From a virus (Duplodnaviria; Heunggongvirae; Uroviricota; Caudoviricetes): a stretch of 32,444 bases of DNA. This document shows, in pieces, positions 6,001 to 32,444 of the stretch. How positions within the stretch are numbered: position 1 is the first letter of the stretch; each line of letters begins with the position of its first letter. Location of the stretch: the IMG/VR virus record IMGVR_UViG_2859821903_000002, positions 1 to 32,444 of that record. One strand, given 5' to 3'. Made by a program: the position numbers.

Positions 6001-9000
6001 CGAAACGGTGGAGGTGGATGAGGTTCCTGTTTACCGGCAGAAAAAATCAGAGCAGGAGGATAAACCCCGTCGCCGTGAGGCGGCTGCAATACCACAGCCG
6101 GACGAAAACAATCCGGAGATGCCACCGCCCGCGGTGATGTCTCATGGTATTGAATATATGGAGGATGGTCTTCCCGATCCGGTGAAAGCTATGGGGCAGA
6201 TCCTGGTGGAAAACCTCAGCATTGATCCGAAACTGGCACTGGATGCGGCCTGGCGACTGGCGCAGTTCACACACCATAAAAAAGGCGATGCCGGTAAAAA
6301 ATCGGCAAAAGGTGATGCCGCGAAAAAAGCGGCTAACCGTTTTGCGGTACCACCACCACGACTGGTGGTGAATAACGATAATGAGGGCAACGGATGATAC
6401 CTGTATGGAGCACGGCCTGCCCGGACTGGGCAGAGCGCCTGAAAAAGGGGCTGTCGATTATTCCGGCTCCGATTTATCCGGACCAGGCCGCACATGCCCT
6501 GGCGATTTTTAAACAACTGCGGATTGTGGATGCACCGGGTAGCCCGACGTTCGGGGAGTCCTGTGCACAGTGGGTGTTTGACCTAGTGGCGGCTCTGTTT
6601 GGCTCCTACGATGCGCAGACCGGTGTCCGCCATATCAAGGAAGTGTTCATTCTGATACCCAAAAAAAACAGCAAGTCCACACTGGCCGCCGGGATCATGA
6701 TGACGGCGCTGTTACTGAACTGGCGGCAGGCGGCGGGTTACACGATTCTGGCCCCGACTGTGGAGGTGGCAGCCAACGCCTTCAATCCTGCCAGGGATAT
6801 GGTACGACGGGACGATGATCTGGATGACCTCTGTCAGGTGCAGACACATATCCGGACCATCACCCACCGGGTGACGGACACCACCCTGAAGGTGGTGGCA
6901 GCCGATCCGAATACGGTGTCCGGTATCAAGTCCGTGGGGACGCTGATTGATGAGTTGTGGCTGTTTGGCAAGCAGTACAAGGCGGAGGACATGTTACGTG
7001 AAGCCATCGGCGGGCTTGCCTCCCGCCCGGAAGGGTTTGTGGTGTATACGACCACCCAGTCGAATGAACCGCCCGCCGGGGTGTTCAGACAAAAACTGCA
7101 GTACGCCCGGGATGTGCGCGACGGCAAAATTAATGATCCGCACTTTCTGCCGGTGATATTTGAACACCCTCCTGAAATGGTGGAAAGCGGGGCTCACCTG
7201 CTGATGGAAAACCTCGCCATGGTCAATCCGAATCTCGGCTATTCAGTGGATGAGGCCTTTCTGTACCGGGAGTACCGTAAAGCCCGGGAAGCCGGTGAAG
7301 AGACATTCCGGGGGTTCATGTCAAAACACGCCAATGTGGAAATTGGTCTTGCCCTGCGCTCTGACCGCTGGGCGGGGGCTGATTTCTGGGAAGAGCAGGG
7401 CCGTTGTATCAACCTGGACGATATCCTGCGTCGTGCTGATGTGGTGACGGTGGGGATTGACGGCGGAGGGCTGGATGATCTGCTGGGGATGTATGTGATT
7501 GGGCGTGACCGGGAGACCCGCGAATGGCTGGGCTGGGGCCATGCCTGGGCGCATGAAACCGCGGTGGTCCGACGGAAGAGCGAGGCGTCCCGGTTTCAGG
7601 ATCTTGTTGCCTGTGGAGATATGACCATTGTCCGGCGTGTCGGGGATGACACGGCGGAAGTGGCGGAATATGTGCGTCGCATTCATGAGGCTGAGTTACT
7701 GGACCATATCGGTATTGACCCGTCAGGGGGGGGCAGATTCTGGATTCACTGGCGGAAGCCGGGATCCCCGACGGAATTGTGGTGGGGATAAGCCAGGGCT
7801 GGAAACTGGGCGGGGCCATTAAAACCACCGAGCGCAAACTGGCTGAAGGGGTGCTGGTGCATGGTGACCAGCCCCTGATGGCCTGGTGTGTCGGCAATGC
7901 CCGGGTGGAGCCTAAAGGTAACGCCATTCTTATCACCAAACAGGCCAGTGGACGGGGAAAAATTGACCCGCTGATGGCGCTGTTCAATGCGGTCTCCCTG
8001 ATGTCCCTTAACCCGGAACCGAAAAAGAAAGAATATGCGGTTTTTTTCATATAACCCTGTTCACACTGTAACCATCACGAACCGCTCCGGCGGTTTTTTT
8101 ATTTTCAGGAGGCTGATGTGACTCTTAAACGGGCCTGTTCCCTGCTGACGGTGAAATCCTTCAGTGAGGATGAACGGGGGATCACCGGGATTGCGTCAAC
8201 GCCTTCTCCGGATCGGGATGGTGACATCCTGGAGCCGGAGGGCGCGGAGTTTGGCAGTGCGATCCCGTTTCTCTGGCAGCATGACCATTCCCGCCCGGTG
8301 GGGCAGTGTACGGTGCGCCGGGTCAGCGAAGGGCTGGAAATCACGGCAACACTGGTGAAGCCCGTACCGGATATGCCGTCGCAACTGGCTGCCCGGCTGG
8401 ATGAGGTCTGGGCGGCCATTAAGACCGGGCTGGTCAGGGGGCTGTCCGTGGGCTTCCGTCCCCATGAATACACCTTTCTGGACGGAGGCGGACTGCATTT
8501 TCTGCGCTGGGAACTGATGGAGGTGTCTGCCGTCACCGTGCCCGCGAATGCGGAATGCACCATCCGGACCATTAAATCTTACGACCGCCCGTTTTCTGCC
8601 GCGTCCGGCAACCGGAAACCGGTGGTGAAAATCGCATCTTCTGCCGGCGCTGCGGCACAGTCAACAACCGTTTTTCATAAGGAAAAGACCATAATGAATA
8701 TTGGCGAACAGATTAAAAGTTTTGAAAACAAGCGTGTAGCGCTGGCAGCCTCCCTTGAGGAGGTCATGACCAAAGCCGCAGAGGAAGGGCGCACGCTGGA
8801 TGTGGAGGAGGAAGAGCATTACGACAACACCGCAGCGGAAATCCGTCAGGTGGATGCGCACCTGAAGCGCCTGCGTGAACTGGAAGCCGGTAAGGCCGCC
8901 ACGGCGCAGCCGGTGAAACAGGCCGGTAACGGGAATGTGGCCGCGGTGGCTTCTGCGCCGGTGATCCGTGTGGAGCAGAAACTGGATAAGGGGATTGGCT

Positions 9001-30000: not shown

Positions 30001-32444
30001 AACTCCGGGAGAAGTAAACGACAGCTGTTGTAGTTTCTGGTTTCTACTGAATTTAAATTGTGGGGTGACACTCACCCCACGCATTCAGAAGGGGGAGATG
30101 AGATGGGGGTAACATCGGGATGGGTAGGCTCTTCGGCTAAGAGCGAAACAGGTGAGCAGTGGATGGGAGCCGCCGGAACCAAACTGGGACTGAGTAAACC
30201 TTTTATGATGAGCCAAATGGTTGGGCGAACTATGGGCTGTAAAATTGCAACTGAGTACTATAAATGGAAATCCTCTGACAAGGTTGATAACTGGGGCGCA
30301 GTTGGCGCTGACTGGCCTTTAGAAGAAAAAAGTAAAGGTACAATTACAAACGCCGCAAGCTGCGGATCAGGGAGGCTGGTAGGGGCTGTCGTTACACTTT
30401 CTCACTTTTTGACGAACTCTACACCGACAGCTGCTGTTTATTTAGCCGGTGGTAAAGCAGGTAACATCACCGTAAACGTAGGTGGTGCTACACAAACCAT
30501 GATTTATCAGGGCGTTGTTAGTGGGTTCCAGTATTACTGGTCAGGTTCTGTTAGTTCCGCTTTCGTGGAGGCAATGAAAAAGACGGGAGTACCCCAGGAT
30601 CTAAAAATTAGTTAAATGGTAAATAAATAATTTTAAAAACTTCACGTTCTACATACCGGAGACGCCGGATATATAGGATATTGTTTTAAGTTGCCAGAGA
30701 AATTTTTCCGGACGGATGCTGATAATAATGATGTGCCAATGACGGCAGCATCATTGATGGCACTGAGTGAAGCGACAGAGCAGGCGATGTTTGCGAAGGG
30801 AGTGGAGATTAATACACGGCAGTTGCAGATGAAAGCCGAGGTTGAGGCGCTGACAGACCTGAAGGCGATCCGCAGTTATGTTGTCGGATGGCCTGCTGGC
30901 TGAATAAAAAAACGGGACCACGACCAGTCCCGGAACCATGAGTTTTAGGGTATTAGTTTGTTATCATAGTTAGCGTGCTAAGTATGCCATGTCAGGTTGA
31001 TTAGTGAAGTGATGTTGTTCGCATTTTTGCACGGCGGAGAATATTCAGATTTTTGGAAATCCATATTTTTCCCGTGCGCGATTACATGCTTCATTTACGA
31101 TGCTATTTTCGCCGGACATTGCGAATTCCCTGCATGTGGACGGTTTTTGTAAACAGAGCAATATGCGTTTTCTCCGGGGGGGGCCGGCAAGAGCGCCACA
31201 TCGGGGATTTTTCTGATTGGTGCCGCGCATACAGCGATGAAAAGGAGATATTTGCTCAGTGAGACTGACCGAAACCTTTCCGCCAGCATCGTCAGTTTCT
31301 GCCCAGTAAAAAGAGACGCGGAAAATGCACAACAGGCACCACACGTCATGCATGGATTCAGATTGCTCATAATTCACCAGTACAGCTATAAATCGTAAAG
31401 AGAACAGCGGTACATCGTATGTAAGAACGTACCGCGGCTGGCTGGTGAACTTCCGATAGTGCGAGTATTGAATGATTTCCAGCCGTTACAGATTTTACGT
31501 GCTAATTAGTGAACAAACCACTCGTCAGCAGACTCCCAGGTATCTTTCAGAGTTTCCTGAACAAAAGTTTTAGCTGAATCTTTATCGGCGGTGCGCGTAA
31601 CAGAAAGGCCATCGTTGCTGGTAGCTTTTACGATCACCTCTACATCGTCATAACGTTTACTGATGCGTCGGGTTAATTCTTCCTTTAACGCATCCACAGC
31701 ACCGGTTGGCATTTTAGTCATTTTTTCTTTGGCTATGCAGATTTCAATACGCATAAAAGTCCCTCTACACTGTGTTTGTATACAGTATCATTTTTGACTG
31801 TATGGATAAACAGTATCAAGGGTGAAGGAAAGTGATTTTTTGGGGCATGCATGGGGCAAAAATATTTGTTGTGGGGCATTTTGGGGCATGATTGGGACAC
31901 TTTGTTACATATGAACTTTGCCGATTTTTATATGACATGGAAATACAACGCTTTGATTCTTCTAAATAAAAAACATGCTCTTGGGCGTTCTTTAGTGATT
32001 TTTAAAAATTCCGTATCACGCAGTTAAAGTGGCGGGCATACTCTTCAAGGCTGGTAATCCCCAACCGCACCCATTTAGGGTGCGACCATTGCGGTAGACC
32101 GATGTAAATCATAACGCGTGAAGGATCTCTTCCACGCTACGCACACGGGCGATGCGCGGGTAGATATGATTAATGCTGTTATTGTGTTGCTCGGCGCTGG
32201 CGGCACTACAGGCGTCTTCGGCAATCACCAGATTAAAGCCAAGTTCCCAGGCATTGCGGGCGGTGGATTCAACACCGATATTGGTCGAGATCCCACATAA
32301 CACTATTGTATCGATACCTCGGCGGCGCAGTTGCAACTCCAGATCCGTACCGTAAAACGCACCCCACTGACGTTTGATGATTTCGATATCACTGTCAGTT
32401 GCACCTAATGCAGCTGGATGTTGCCACCAGTTTTCGGGCAACAC

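What the first reader, a model, noticed from the sequence alone, without database searches (positions are those of the whole stretch)
6394..30017. About twenty single-base deletions, mostly in homopolymer runs, disrupt phage structural genes while all IS ORFs are intact
TerL, protease-capsid, the repeat protein (2), gp11-like, tape measure, L, K (2), I (2), J (4), Lom (2) and Stf all need one added base to restore a frame colinear with lambda/HK97 homologues. Most sites are G/C or A runs (G8 at 7726, G6 at 9740, A5 at 12488, C5 at 13876, G4 at 21436, A6 at 28055). A uniform direction at homopolymers is the signature of long-read sequencing error, yet IS1, IS629 and the IS66 element (about 5 kb) have no frameshifts and density is uneven. 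So this may instead be a decaying prophage in an IS-rich, Shigella-like genome.
Basis: seen in the sequence. Interest (0 to 1): 0.6.

Follow-up and report, generated by a model that had tools for sequence, protein, structure and literature searches.

The report
Mostly assembly errors in a dead prophage
Most of the roughly twenty one-base "frameshifts" in this Shigella prophage are uncorrected long-read consensus errors at runs of G or C, laid over a prophage that really is dead from a few true mutations and an insertion sequence, so nothing here is biologically unusual.

Summary
Against intact relatives, the window has about 22 frame-breaking deletions at short repeats and no insertions in genes.

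The window is NCBI CP026839.1 (GCA_002950115.1), positions about 2,006,215-2,038,658. By lineage match it is the Shigella dysenteriae serotype 7 closed genome. Independent short-read assemblies of the same lineage share its ISEc49 insertion and its tape-measure stop codon. Across about 26 kb they match the window except for four substitutions and 14 one-base deletions.

- **Artefacts (14):** 13 are in G/C runs and one is a T between two G4 runs. Ten sit in one copy of a 6.8 kb exact repeat within the genome (22008-28835). That copy shows no substitutions against the short-read contig.
- **Real (5):** capsid 9739, post-portal ORF 12487, J 27500 (2 bp), and Lom 28054 and 28300. The TMP nonsense codon and the IS insertions are also real.
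- **Unresolved (2):** 11948 and 29599, probably errors.
- **Not a lesion (1):** 11611 is a natural G5/G6 polymorphism.

The IS elements look intact because they hold only two G/C runs of 5 or more. Even so, the ISEc49 transposase carries one of the errors. A 2022 paper already reports numerous homopolymer indels in the PacBio-only series this accession appears to belong to. Verdict: mostly artefact over ordinary prophage decay, low interest.

The parts
15709..18473 (-). ISEc49 (IS66 family) inserted in the tape-measure gene. The insertion is real. The transposase carries a private one-base deletion (C3->C2) after 16089, which is an assembly error.
   Evidence: It is 99.7% identical to annotated ISEc49. 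The same insertion junctions occur in the Logan short-read contigs L022 and L023, which have CCC at 16089 and a 533-aa transposase. The window's 534-aa form is found on one contig only.
22008..28835 (+). One copy of a 6.8 kb exact intragenomic repeat covering L, K, I, J, Lom and the Stf 5' end. It holds 10 single-G deletions that are consensus errors, after 22319, 22910, 23019, 23430, 23686, 24010, 24083, 25159, 25234 and 26450.
   Evidence: Against the short-read contig L020 (GCA_014376135.1) there are 0 substitutions and exactly these 10 G deletions in 6,760 aligned columns. The second copy in the same assembly (L018, CP026839.1 2.63 Mb) lacks 9 of the 10. The repaired L, K, I and J proteins are on record on 2 to 641 contigs, while the three fragments I looked up (L 115 aa, J 324 aa, TMP 423 aa) are each on 1.
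6394..8054 (+). Terminase large subunit. The apparent frameshift after 7729 (GGGGTGGGG read as G8, T lost) is an assembly error.
   Evidence: The Logan contigs L027 and L028 match window 2710-11902 except for this T and one substitution at 8085, and they encode an intact 553-aa TerL. The 465-aa fragment is on one contig only. The repaired protein is on 117 contigs.
8118..10054 (+). HK97-type protease-major capsid fusion gene with a real G7->G6 frameshift after 9739.
   Evidence: The same 549 + 96 aa split and identical DNA occur in L027 and L028. The exact 549-aa product is on 5 contigs from NCBI and Logan. Close relatives L009 and L030 have G7.
10266..11630 (+). Portal gene (454 aa), intact. 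The G5 run at 11611 is a natural G5/G6 polymorphism that separates or fuses the portal and the downstream repeat ORF.
   Evidence: 5 of 10 relatives have G5, including the Illumina assembly L009, and 5 have G6. The gene calls are 454 + 407 aa in the G5 loci and 861 aa in the G6 loci.
11627..12686 (+). Post-portal tandem-repeat ORF. The C5->C4 deletion after 11948 is unresolved and probably an error. The A6->A5 deletion after 12487 is real.
   Evidence: 12487 is shared with the Logan contig L022. 11948 lies in a gap between short-read contigs (11903-12173). The 119-aa product occurs only in CP026839.1 and CP026872.1, which carry neighbouring accessions. A 211-aa protein from another genome reads through the site at 100% identity on both sides.
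13809..14152 (+). Tail completion protein gp17 (gp11-like). The C6->C5 deletion after 13875 is an assembly error.
   Evidence: L022 has C6 and an intact 114-aa gene. The repaired protein is on 41 contigs.
18474..21690 (+). Tape-measure gene downstream of the IS. The nonsense codon at 20162-20164 (CAG->TAG) is real. The G5->G4 deletion after 21435 is an assembly error.
   Evidence: The stop was found by codon-level comparison. The 544-aa fragment that ends at this stop is on 7 contigs, including five Logan short-read runs (four loci were shown). All four aligned contigs have G5 at 21435. Three encode a 497-aa C-terminal part, and L025 has a further deletion of its own.
24288..27756 (+). Tail tip protein J. 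It has three error deletions (25159, 25234, 26450) and one real 2-base deletion in a GA repeat after 27500 that cuts off the C-terminal 85 aa.
   Evidence: L020 and L018 share the 2-base deletion, giving 1076 + 85 aa. Six related Shigella-type loci have the two bases.
27824..28421 (+). Lom outer-membrane protein gene with two real frameshifts, A7->A6 after 28054 and G6->G5 after 28300.
   Evidence: Both are identical in L020 (short-read assembly) and in L018. Related loci have A7 and G6.
28486..30017 (+). Side tail fibre gene (collagen-like repeats plus a Peptidase_S74 C-terminus). The C5->C4 deletion after 29599 is probably an error but was not verified.
   Evidence: Six related Shigella-type loci have C5. 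They include S. boydii Sb227 (CP000036), which from my own knowledge was Sanger-sequenced, and they are 99.6-99.8% identical over 29449-32444. The resulting 111-aa ORF is on one contig only. The repaired 510-aa protein is not on record.
1456..2766 (+). IS629/IS1203-type IS3-family element upstream of the lysis genes. It has no frameshift and only two G/C runs of 5 or more.
   Evidence: The annotation of matching E. coli records names it an IS3-family transposase.

Best explanation
The window is a lambdoid prophage with an HK97-type head, integrated at the yecE/yecN site of a Shigella dysenteriae serotype 7 chromosome (CP026839.1).

Two layers of lesions are superimposed.

**Layer 1, real and ordinary.** The prophage is defective. 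ISEc49 splits the tape-measure gene, which also has a nonsense codon. IS629 and IS1 sit upstream of the lysis genes. Five slippage-type frameshifts at long repeats disrupt the capsid (G7), the post-portal ORF (A6), J (a GA repeat) and Lom (A7 and G6).

**Layer 2, artefact and the majority.** At least 14, and probably 16, single-base deletions are consensus errors of a PacBio-only assembly that was never polished with short reads. They fall almost only in G/C runs, and the per-run probability rises steeply with run length.

Three things make the errors look concentrated in phage structural genes:
- These genes hold about 4-5 times more G/C runs of 5 or more per kb than the chromosomal flanks sampled, and more than the IS elements.
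- Ten of the errors lie in one copy of a 6.8 kb exact repeat shared with a second prophage in the same genome.
- In such a repeat, polishing reads are ambiguous, or map preferentially to the cleaner copy, so draft-level errors survive. This last step is inferred, not shown.
For: **Source.** Exact-protein look-ups place the window in GCA_002950115.1 CP026839.1.

**Same lineage, independent data.** Several short-read assemblies carry the same ISEc49 junctions and the same TMP stop codon. They are the Logan runs ERR5984612, ERR5984641, ERR5984630, SRR8186604, SRR15369768 and DRR015991, plus NCBI GCA_014376135.1. ERR5984612 and ERR5984641 are S. dysenteriae 7 reference strains.

**What differs.** Over window 2710-11902, 12174-22037 and 22029-28778 these contigs match the window except for 14 one-base deletions and 4 substitutions. 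Of the deletions, 13 are in G/C runs and one is a T between two G4 runs.

**The repeat.** In the 6.8 kb repeat the count is 10 deletions and 0 substitutions. The sister copy in the same assembly lacks 9 of the 10.

**Per-run rates in that copy:**

| Run type | Shortened |
|---|---|
| G/C 6 | 2/2 |
| G/C 5 | 5/9 |
| G/C 4 | 3/40 |
| G/C 3 | 0/133 |
| A/T runs | 0/143 |

**Fragments versus repaired proteins.** The fragment proteins I looked up that arise from an error site are each on a single contig. The one exception is a commonly called 83-aa internal gp17 ORF, which is uninformative. The repaired proteins are on 2 to 641 contigs.

**Neighbouring accession.** CP026872.1 shows about 27 extra G/C-run deletions in 11.7 kb of a 99.4%-identical prophage.

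**Targets.** The IS elements hold only two G/C runs of 5 or more. The flanks hold 3 in 8.9 kb, against 11 in the 6.8 kb repeat.

**Literature.** PMC8795385 says of the Kim et al. [quoted passage not shown] It uses CP026840 as S. dysenteriae 4 and names a PacBio S. dysenteriae 7 genome, strain ATCC 9052.

**Real layer.** The capsid 549-aa, TMP 544-aa and Lom 98-aa fragments recur in independent assemblies.
Against: - I could not read the GenBank record or Kim et al. 2018. That CP026839.1 is the PacBio-only S. dysenteriae 7 genome is therefore inferred from accession adjacency and lineage match, not read directly.
- No raw reads were examined.
- The short-read assemblies come from related isolates and are not shown to be the same culture. 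A strain-private origin of the 14 deletions is excluded only by improbability: no accompanying substitutions, all -1, all in G/C context.
- For the repeat, a short-read contig could in principle represent only the intact paralogue.
- Two sites (11948, 29599) have no same-lineage short-read coverage.
- The mechanism that makes one repeat copy worse than the other is conjecture.
Confidence: 0.93

Rival explanations
1. All of the roughly 20 deletions are real. The prophage has been decaying neutrally for a long time in an IS-rich Shigella genome.
For: The prophage really is defective. It has an IS insertion, a nonsense codon and five frameshifts that reproduce in independent assemblies.
Against: Fourteen of the deletions are absent from short-read assemblies that share the lineage-defining IS insertion and stop codon and are otherwise identical. 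In the 6.8 kb repeat the count is 10 deletions to 0 substitutions. From my recollection of E. coli mutation-accumulation work, which I did not check here, spontaneous substitutions outnumber indels about tenfold. In 21.4-25.3 kb, 6 of 7 G5 runs scored against the intact relative L002 are shortened, against 1 of 17 G runs of 5 or more in 7.3-15 kb. Neutral decay would not pattern that way. There are no +1 events.
Confidence: 0.02
2. The deletions are real but private to the sequenced culture (ATCC 9052). They might come from a mutator episode or long laboratory passage that hit one prophage copy.
For: The comparison genomes are other isolates of the lineage. The window also has four private substitutions (8085, 16329, 17615, 17929).
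Against: A mismatch-repair mutator would also produce many transitions and +1 events, would hit A/T runs, and would hit both repeat copies equally. None of this is seen. A neighbouring-accession assembly shows the same error signature even more strongly. The literature reports the artefact genome-wide for identical strains in the PacBio series.
Confidence: 0.03
3. The short-read contig for the repeat represents only the intact paralogue. The window copy could then really carry the 9-10 deletions while the other copy does not.
For: The region is a two-copy repeat, and short-read assemblers collapse repeats.
Against: The contig L020 spans the repeat unbroken and ends at the repeat boundaries (22029-28778 against 22008-28835). 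That is what a perfect two-copy collapse gives. Ten heterozygous-like indels would be expected to fragment it (inference). The two copies also show no substitutions across 6.8 kb. Four further errors of the same kind lie outside any detected repeat.
Confidence: 0.02

Closest known systems
Homopolymer deletion errors in unpolished long-read (PacBio RS II) bacterial assemblies, specifically the 59 closed Shigella genomes of Kim et al. 2018
   Same: The deletions are all -1, fall in G/C runs, break frames, and are absent from Illumina assemblies of the same lineage. The problem is explicitly reported for this genome series in PMC8795385.
   Different: The local density here is unusually high, 10 in 6.8 kb, because the segment is one copy of an exact intragenomic repeat. 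About a quarter of the frameshifts in the window are not errors.
Defective lambdoid prophages of Shigella and E. coli (IS-disrupted, pseudogenised remnants)
   Same: There is an IS66-family insertion in the tape-measure gene, IS629 and IS1 upstream of the lysis genes, a nonsense codon, and slippage frameshifts at the longest runs (G7, A7, A6, G6, GA repeat). All of these reproduce across assemblies.
   Different: The true lesion load is about 5 frameshifts plus 1 stop plus the IS insertions. That is far less than the roughly 20 frameshifts the raw sequence suggests.
Lambdoid prophages with an HK97-type head in E. coli (for example in strains AF14 and NMBU-W12E19)
   Same: The gene order is collinear: TerS, TerL, protease-capsid, portal, connectors, V, G/T, TMP, M, L, K, I, J, Lom, Stf, gp38. 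Identity is 96-99.6%.
   Different: The relatives are intact at every error site.

Membership tests
Long-read consensus artefact (unpolished PacBio assembly) | The indels are absent from independent high-accuracy (short-read) assemblies of the same lineage | tested here: met
   14 sites are absent from the Logan and NCBI short-read contigs, which otherwise match the window except for 4 substitutions. Two further sites could not be tested.
Long-read consensus artefact (unpolished PacBio assembly) | One direction only (deletions), confined to homopolymers, with a rate that rises with run length | tested here: met
   14 of 14 are deletions, and 13 of 14 are in G/C runs. Rates in the repeat copy are G/C6 2/2, G/C5 5/9, G/C4 3/40, G/C3 0/133 and A/T 0/143.
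Long-read consensus artefact (unpolished PacBio assembly) | No accompanying excess of substitutions | tested here: met
   There are 0 substitutions against 10 deletions in 6,760 aligned columns, and 4 substitutions against 4 deletions in about 19 kb.
Long-read consensus artefact (unpolished PacBio assembly) | The assembly was made from long reads only, without short-read polishing | tested here: inconclusive
   PMC8795385 states this for the Kim et al. closed Shigella genomes, cites CP026840 as S. dysenteriae 4 and names a PacBio S. dysenteriae 7 genome, ATCC 9052. I did not read the record for CP026839.1 itself, and Kim et al. 2018 is not held.
Long-read consensus artefact (unpolished PacBio assembly) | The raw reads do not support the shorter runs | not testable with these tools
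   I had no access to reads.
Truly decaying (defective) prophage | Inactivating lesions that reproduce in independent assemblies | tested here: met
   The reproducible lesions are the ISEc49 insertion in TMP, the TMP CAG->TAG stop, capsid 9739, 12487, the J 2-bp deletion, and Lom 28054 and 28300.
Truly decaying (defective) prophage | A mixed lesion spectrum (nonsense, IS, indels of both signs) in proportion to substitution divergence | tested here: not met
   This fails for the full set of about 22 indels: all are -1, there is only one nonsense codon, and there are no substitutions in the densest stretch. The reduced real set of 5 frameshifts, 1 stop and the IS insertions is compatible.
Phase-variable or programmed slippage tracts | Run length varies among independent accurate assemblies, or there is a conserved slippery context | tested here: not met
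   The short-read assemblies agree with each other at all 14 sites. Only 11611 (portal G5/G6) is polymorphic among relatives, and it is not one of the lesions.
Lambdoid prophage with HK97-type head | A collinear structural gene set with the family's domains | tested here: met
   The precomputed Pfam hits are Terminase_2, TerL_ATPase, Peptidase_S78 + Phage_capsid, Phage_portal, HK97-gp10_like, Phage_TAC_1, Phage_tail_T, Phage_HK97_TLTM, Phage_min_tail, Phage_tail_L, Lambda_tail_I, GpJ domains and Ail_Lom.

The most novel reading that the evidence does not exclude
The G-run deletions in the window's copy of the 6.8 kb repeat are real in strain ATCC 9052. On this reading a G-tract-specific, deletion-only mutational process has acted on one prophage copy without leaving substitutions, while the sister copy stayed intact.
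Probability: 0.02. Interest if true: 0.5.

Novelty: not a real feature. Interest (0 to 1): 0.08.

Why it matters
This matters mainly as a caution. About three quarters of the apparent pseudogenising frameshifts in this prophage do not exist in the organism. Counts of pseudogenes, estimates of prophage decay and allele typing taken from this assembly, and from its neighbouring accessions, will therefore be inflated. The inflation is worst in G-run-rich phage genes and in long exact repeats.

The real residue is an IS-split tape-measure gene, one stop codon and five slippage frameshifts. That is ordinary prophage decay in Shigella.

Tried and rejected
- **Accession search.** A full-text search for CP026839 found nothing.
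- **Kim et al. 2018.** The paper is not held under its PMC id or its DOI.
- **Other supplements.** The supplements of PMC10132075 and PMC8767346 are not held.
- **Repaired Stf and post-portal ORF.** Exact look-ups of the repaired 510-aa Stf and the repaired 294-aa post-portal ORF found nothing. Sites 29599 and 11948 therefore stay unverified. The likely cause is that short-read contigs break in the collagen-like and 162-bp tandem repeats; the Logan contigs end at 11902 and resume at 12174.
- **gp38 look-up.** I used the gp38 gene to reach serotype 7 contigs across 29599. The protein is too widespread (3,144 blocks), so only long contigs of other Shigella and E. coli genomes were shown. They did show C5 at the site.
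- **ISEc49 look-up.** I looked up the frameshifted ISEc49 transposase hoping to reach other parts of the same genome. It exists only at this one place.
- **Contig-end hypothesis.** I considered that the dense patch marks the original contig ends after circularisation. I dropped this once the exact 6.8 kb repeat was found.
- **Strand bias.** I considered a G-versus-C strand bias. The repeat has ten G runs of 5 or more and only one C run of that length, so no asymmetry can be claimed.
- **Not used.** I did not run the genome contigs or metagenome-contig scans, structure prediction or RNA tools. They have no bearing on the question.

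
Full report
**1. Checking the observation**

The window aligns collinearly with intact E. coli prophages that combine an HK97-type head with lambda-like tail genes. Window 4929-15708 is 98% identical to strain AF14 (L001). Window 18474-31500 is 96.6-99.5% identical to strain NMBU-W12E19 (L002).

A base-level list of indels shows about 22 frame-breaking deletions in the structural genes and no insertion inside any gene.
- a third site in K (23019);
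- one site in the I-J spacer (24083);
- one site in the ISEc49 transposase (16089).

Inserting the missing bases restores every gene I repaired to a single open frame with no internal stop (TerL, gp17, TMP C-terminal part, L, K, I, J to the real 2-bp lesion, Stf, post-portal ORF). The capsid and Lom lesions proved real, so I did not repair those genes.

**2. Where the window comes from**

An exact look-up of the truncated TerL product finds one contig in the whole collection. It is NCBI GCA_002950115.1, CP026839.1, a 4.27 Mb chromosome, and the window is about 2,006,215-2,038,658.

The prophage sits between yecN-cmoA-cmoB-torZ on the left and DinI, a yecE remnant, yecD::IS110 and aspS on the right.

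**3. The decisive comparison**

I looked up products of lesions that must be real if the lineage exists elsewhere. These returned independent short-read assemblies of the same lineage.

- **TMP fragment.** The 544-aa TMP fragment starts just after the IS and ends at the nonsense codon. It occurs in the Logan assemblies of ERR5984641, SRR8186604, SRR15369768 and ERR5984630.
- **Portal allele.** The portal allele occurs in ERR5984612 and DRR015991.
- **Lom fragment.** The 98-aa Lom fragment occurs in NCBI GCA_014376135.1, and in a second prophage of CP026839.1 itself.
- **Strain identity.** ERR5984612 and ERR5984641 are the S. dysenteriae serotype 7 reference strains CIP 52.123 and NCDC4788-55.

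What the alignments show:

| Window region | Compared with | Differences |
|---|---|---|
| 2710-11902 | L027, L028 | loss of T at 7729; substitution at 8085 |
| 12174-22037 | L022-L025 | deletions at 13875 (C6->C5), 16089 (C3->C2), 21435 (G5->G4); three substitutions inside the IS |
| 22029-28778 | L020 | exactly ten single-G deletions and no substitutions |

These 14 sites are therefore not in the organism's lineage.

By contrast, several lesions are present in the short-read assemblies and are real:
- capsid G7->G6 (9739);
- A6->A5 (12487);
- the 2-base deletion in J (27500);
- both Lom frameshifts (28054, 28300);
- the TMP stop codon;
- the IS insertion.

Exact-sequence counts agree. Each error-derived fragment I looked up is on one contig: TerL 465 aa, TMP 423 aa, L 115 aa, J 324 aa, Stf 111 aa and the 534-aa transposase. 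The one exception is an uninformative 83-aa gp17 ORF that is commonly called in other genomes. The repaired proteins are on 2 to 641 contigs.

**4. Why the density is uneven**

The second prophage in the same assembly (L018, at 2.63 Mb) shares a 6.8 kb segment with the window (22008-28835). That segment is identical except for nine of the ten G deletions. The tenth (23019, G6) is shortened in both copies. So the dense patch is one copy of an exact intragenomic repeat.

Taking L020 as the truth, the per-run error rates in that copy are as follows:

| Run type | Shortened |
|---|---|
| G/C 6 | 2/2 |
| G/C 5 | 5/9 |
| G/C 4 | 3/40 |
| G/C 3 | 0/133 |
| A/T, any length | 0/143 |

Outside the repeat, 2 of 24 G/C runs of 5 or more are shortened.

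IS1, IS629 and ISEc49 together contain only two G/C runs of 5 or more. Fewer than one error is expected there, and one is present. The chromosomal flanks are also poor in targets, with 3 G/C runs of 5 or more in 8.9 kb. The single G5 run upstream of aspS is itself one base short of the closest E. coli match. So the apparent sparing of IS elements and flanks is a matter of target density, not selection.

Why one repeat copy kept more errors than the other is inferred. The likely cause is ambiguous read placement during polishing, with reads favouring the cleaner copy.

**5. Batch and literature**

The only other assembly with the window's 119-aa post-portal fragment is CP026872.1, a neighbouring accession. 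Its 99.4%-identical prophage has about 27 further one-base deletions in G/C runs over 11.7 kb, relative to the window.

Yassine et al. 2022 (PMC8795385) write that the closed PacBio Shigella genomes of Kim et al. [quoted passage not shown] They use CP026840 as S. dysenteriae 4, and they mention a PacBio genome of S. dysenteriae 7 strain ATCC 9052.

That CP026839.1 is that serotype 7 genome is my inference from accession adjacency and lineage identity. I could not read the record or the Kim et al. paper.

**6. Open sites**

- **11948 (C5->C4).** It lies in a gap between short-read contigs, caused by 162-bp tandem repeats. A protein from another genome reads through the site at 100% identity on both sides. 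I rate it about 65% an error.
- **29599 (C5->C4).** It is private to this assembly. Six related Shigella-type loci carry the same prophage at the same locus and all have C5. They include S. boydii Sb227, which from my own knowledge was Sanger-sequenced. The 111-aa ORF it creates is on one contig, although at least five other same-lineage assemblies exist. I rate it about 85% an error.
- **11611.** The G5 run is not a lesion. G5 (portal 454 aa plus a separate ORF with an ATGA overlap) and G6 (a fused 861 aa protein) each occur in half of the relatives.

**7. Verdict**

Its preferred interpretation, real decay, is right for a minority of the sites. The alternative it doubted, long-read error, explains the majority, and this artefact is already documented for this genome series.

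What remains is a conventionally defective Shigella prophage. Novelty is 'not a real feature' for the striking pattern, and the real residue is already-known biology. Interest is low.

Noticed in passing
window 22008-28835 and L018 4176-11012 (CP026839.1, about 2.636-2.643 Mb): Two different prophages in the same chromosome share a 6.8 kb segment (L to the Stf 5' end) with no substitutions. The shared segment includes the same real pseudogenising lesions in J and Lom. This points to a recent recombination or gene-conversion tract between the prophages after those lesions arose.
   Followed up: partly
window 11606-11630 (G run at 11611); relatives L001, L007-L016: A G5/G6 polymorphism decides the gene structure here. 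With G5 the portal is a 454-aa protein followed by a separate 407-aa repeat ORF with an ATGA overlap. With G6 the two are fused into an 807-861 aa protein. Each state occurs in about half of the relatives, including Illumina assemblies. It could be a natural slippage switch, or errors in some of the records.
   Followed up: partly
L030 (CP026872.1 1,235,049-1,255,408): A neighbouring-accession assembly carries a 99.4%-identical prophage with about 27 extra one-base deletions in G/C runs as short as 3-4, plus an 11-base deletion. TerL, the capsid and the portal are all shredded there.
   Followed up: partly
window 16329, 17615, 17929 (inside ISEc49) and 8085: These are four substitutions against the same-lineage short-read contigs. 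Three cluster within 1.6 kb of the IS, while the remaining about 24 kb has only one. They could be a true strain difference, conversion from another IS copy, or consensus error.
   Followed up: no
L019 16572 (37 nt upstream of aspS, about 4.1 kb right of the window end): The only G5 run in 3.9 kb of chromosomal flank is G4 in this assembly when compared with the closest E. coli match. It is probably another uncorrected error outside the prophage.
   Followed up: no
window 1-1169: The window opens inside one IS1 copy (1-395), which is followed directly by a second, more divergent IS1 (401-1169, 91.5% identical to IS1A). IS629 then follows at 1456-2766. This stack of IS elements replaces the early and regulatory part of the prophage.
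   Followed up: no
window 31095-31377 (- strand): The YkgJ-family cysteine-cluster gene near the right prophage end is split. It is also annotated as frameshifted in E. coli NMBU-W12E19. The G8 run at 31176 is G7 in two of the six related Shigella-type loci, one of them Sb227.
   Followed up: no
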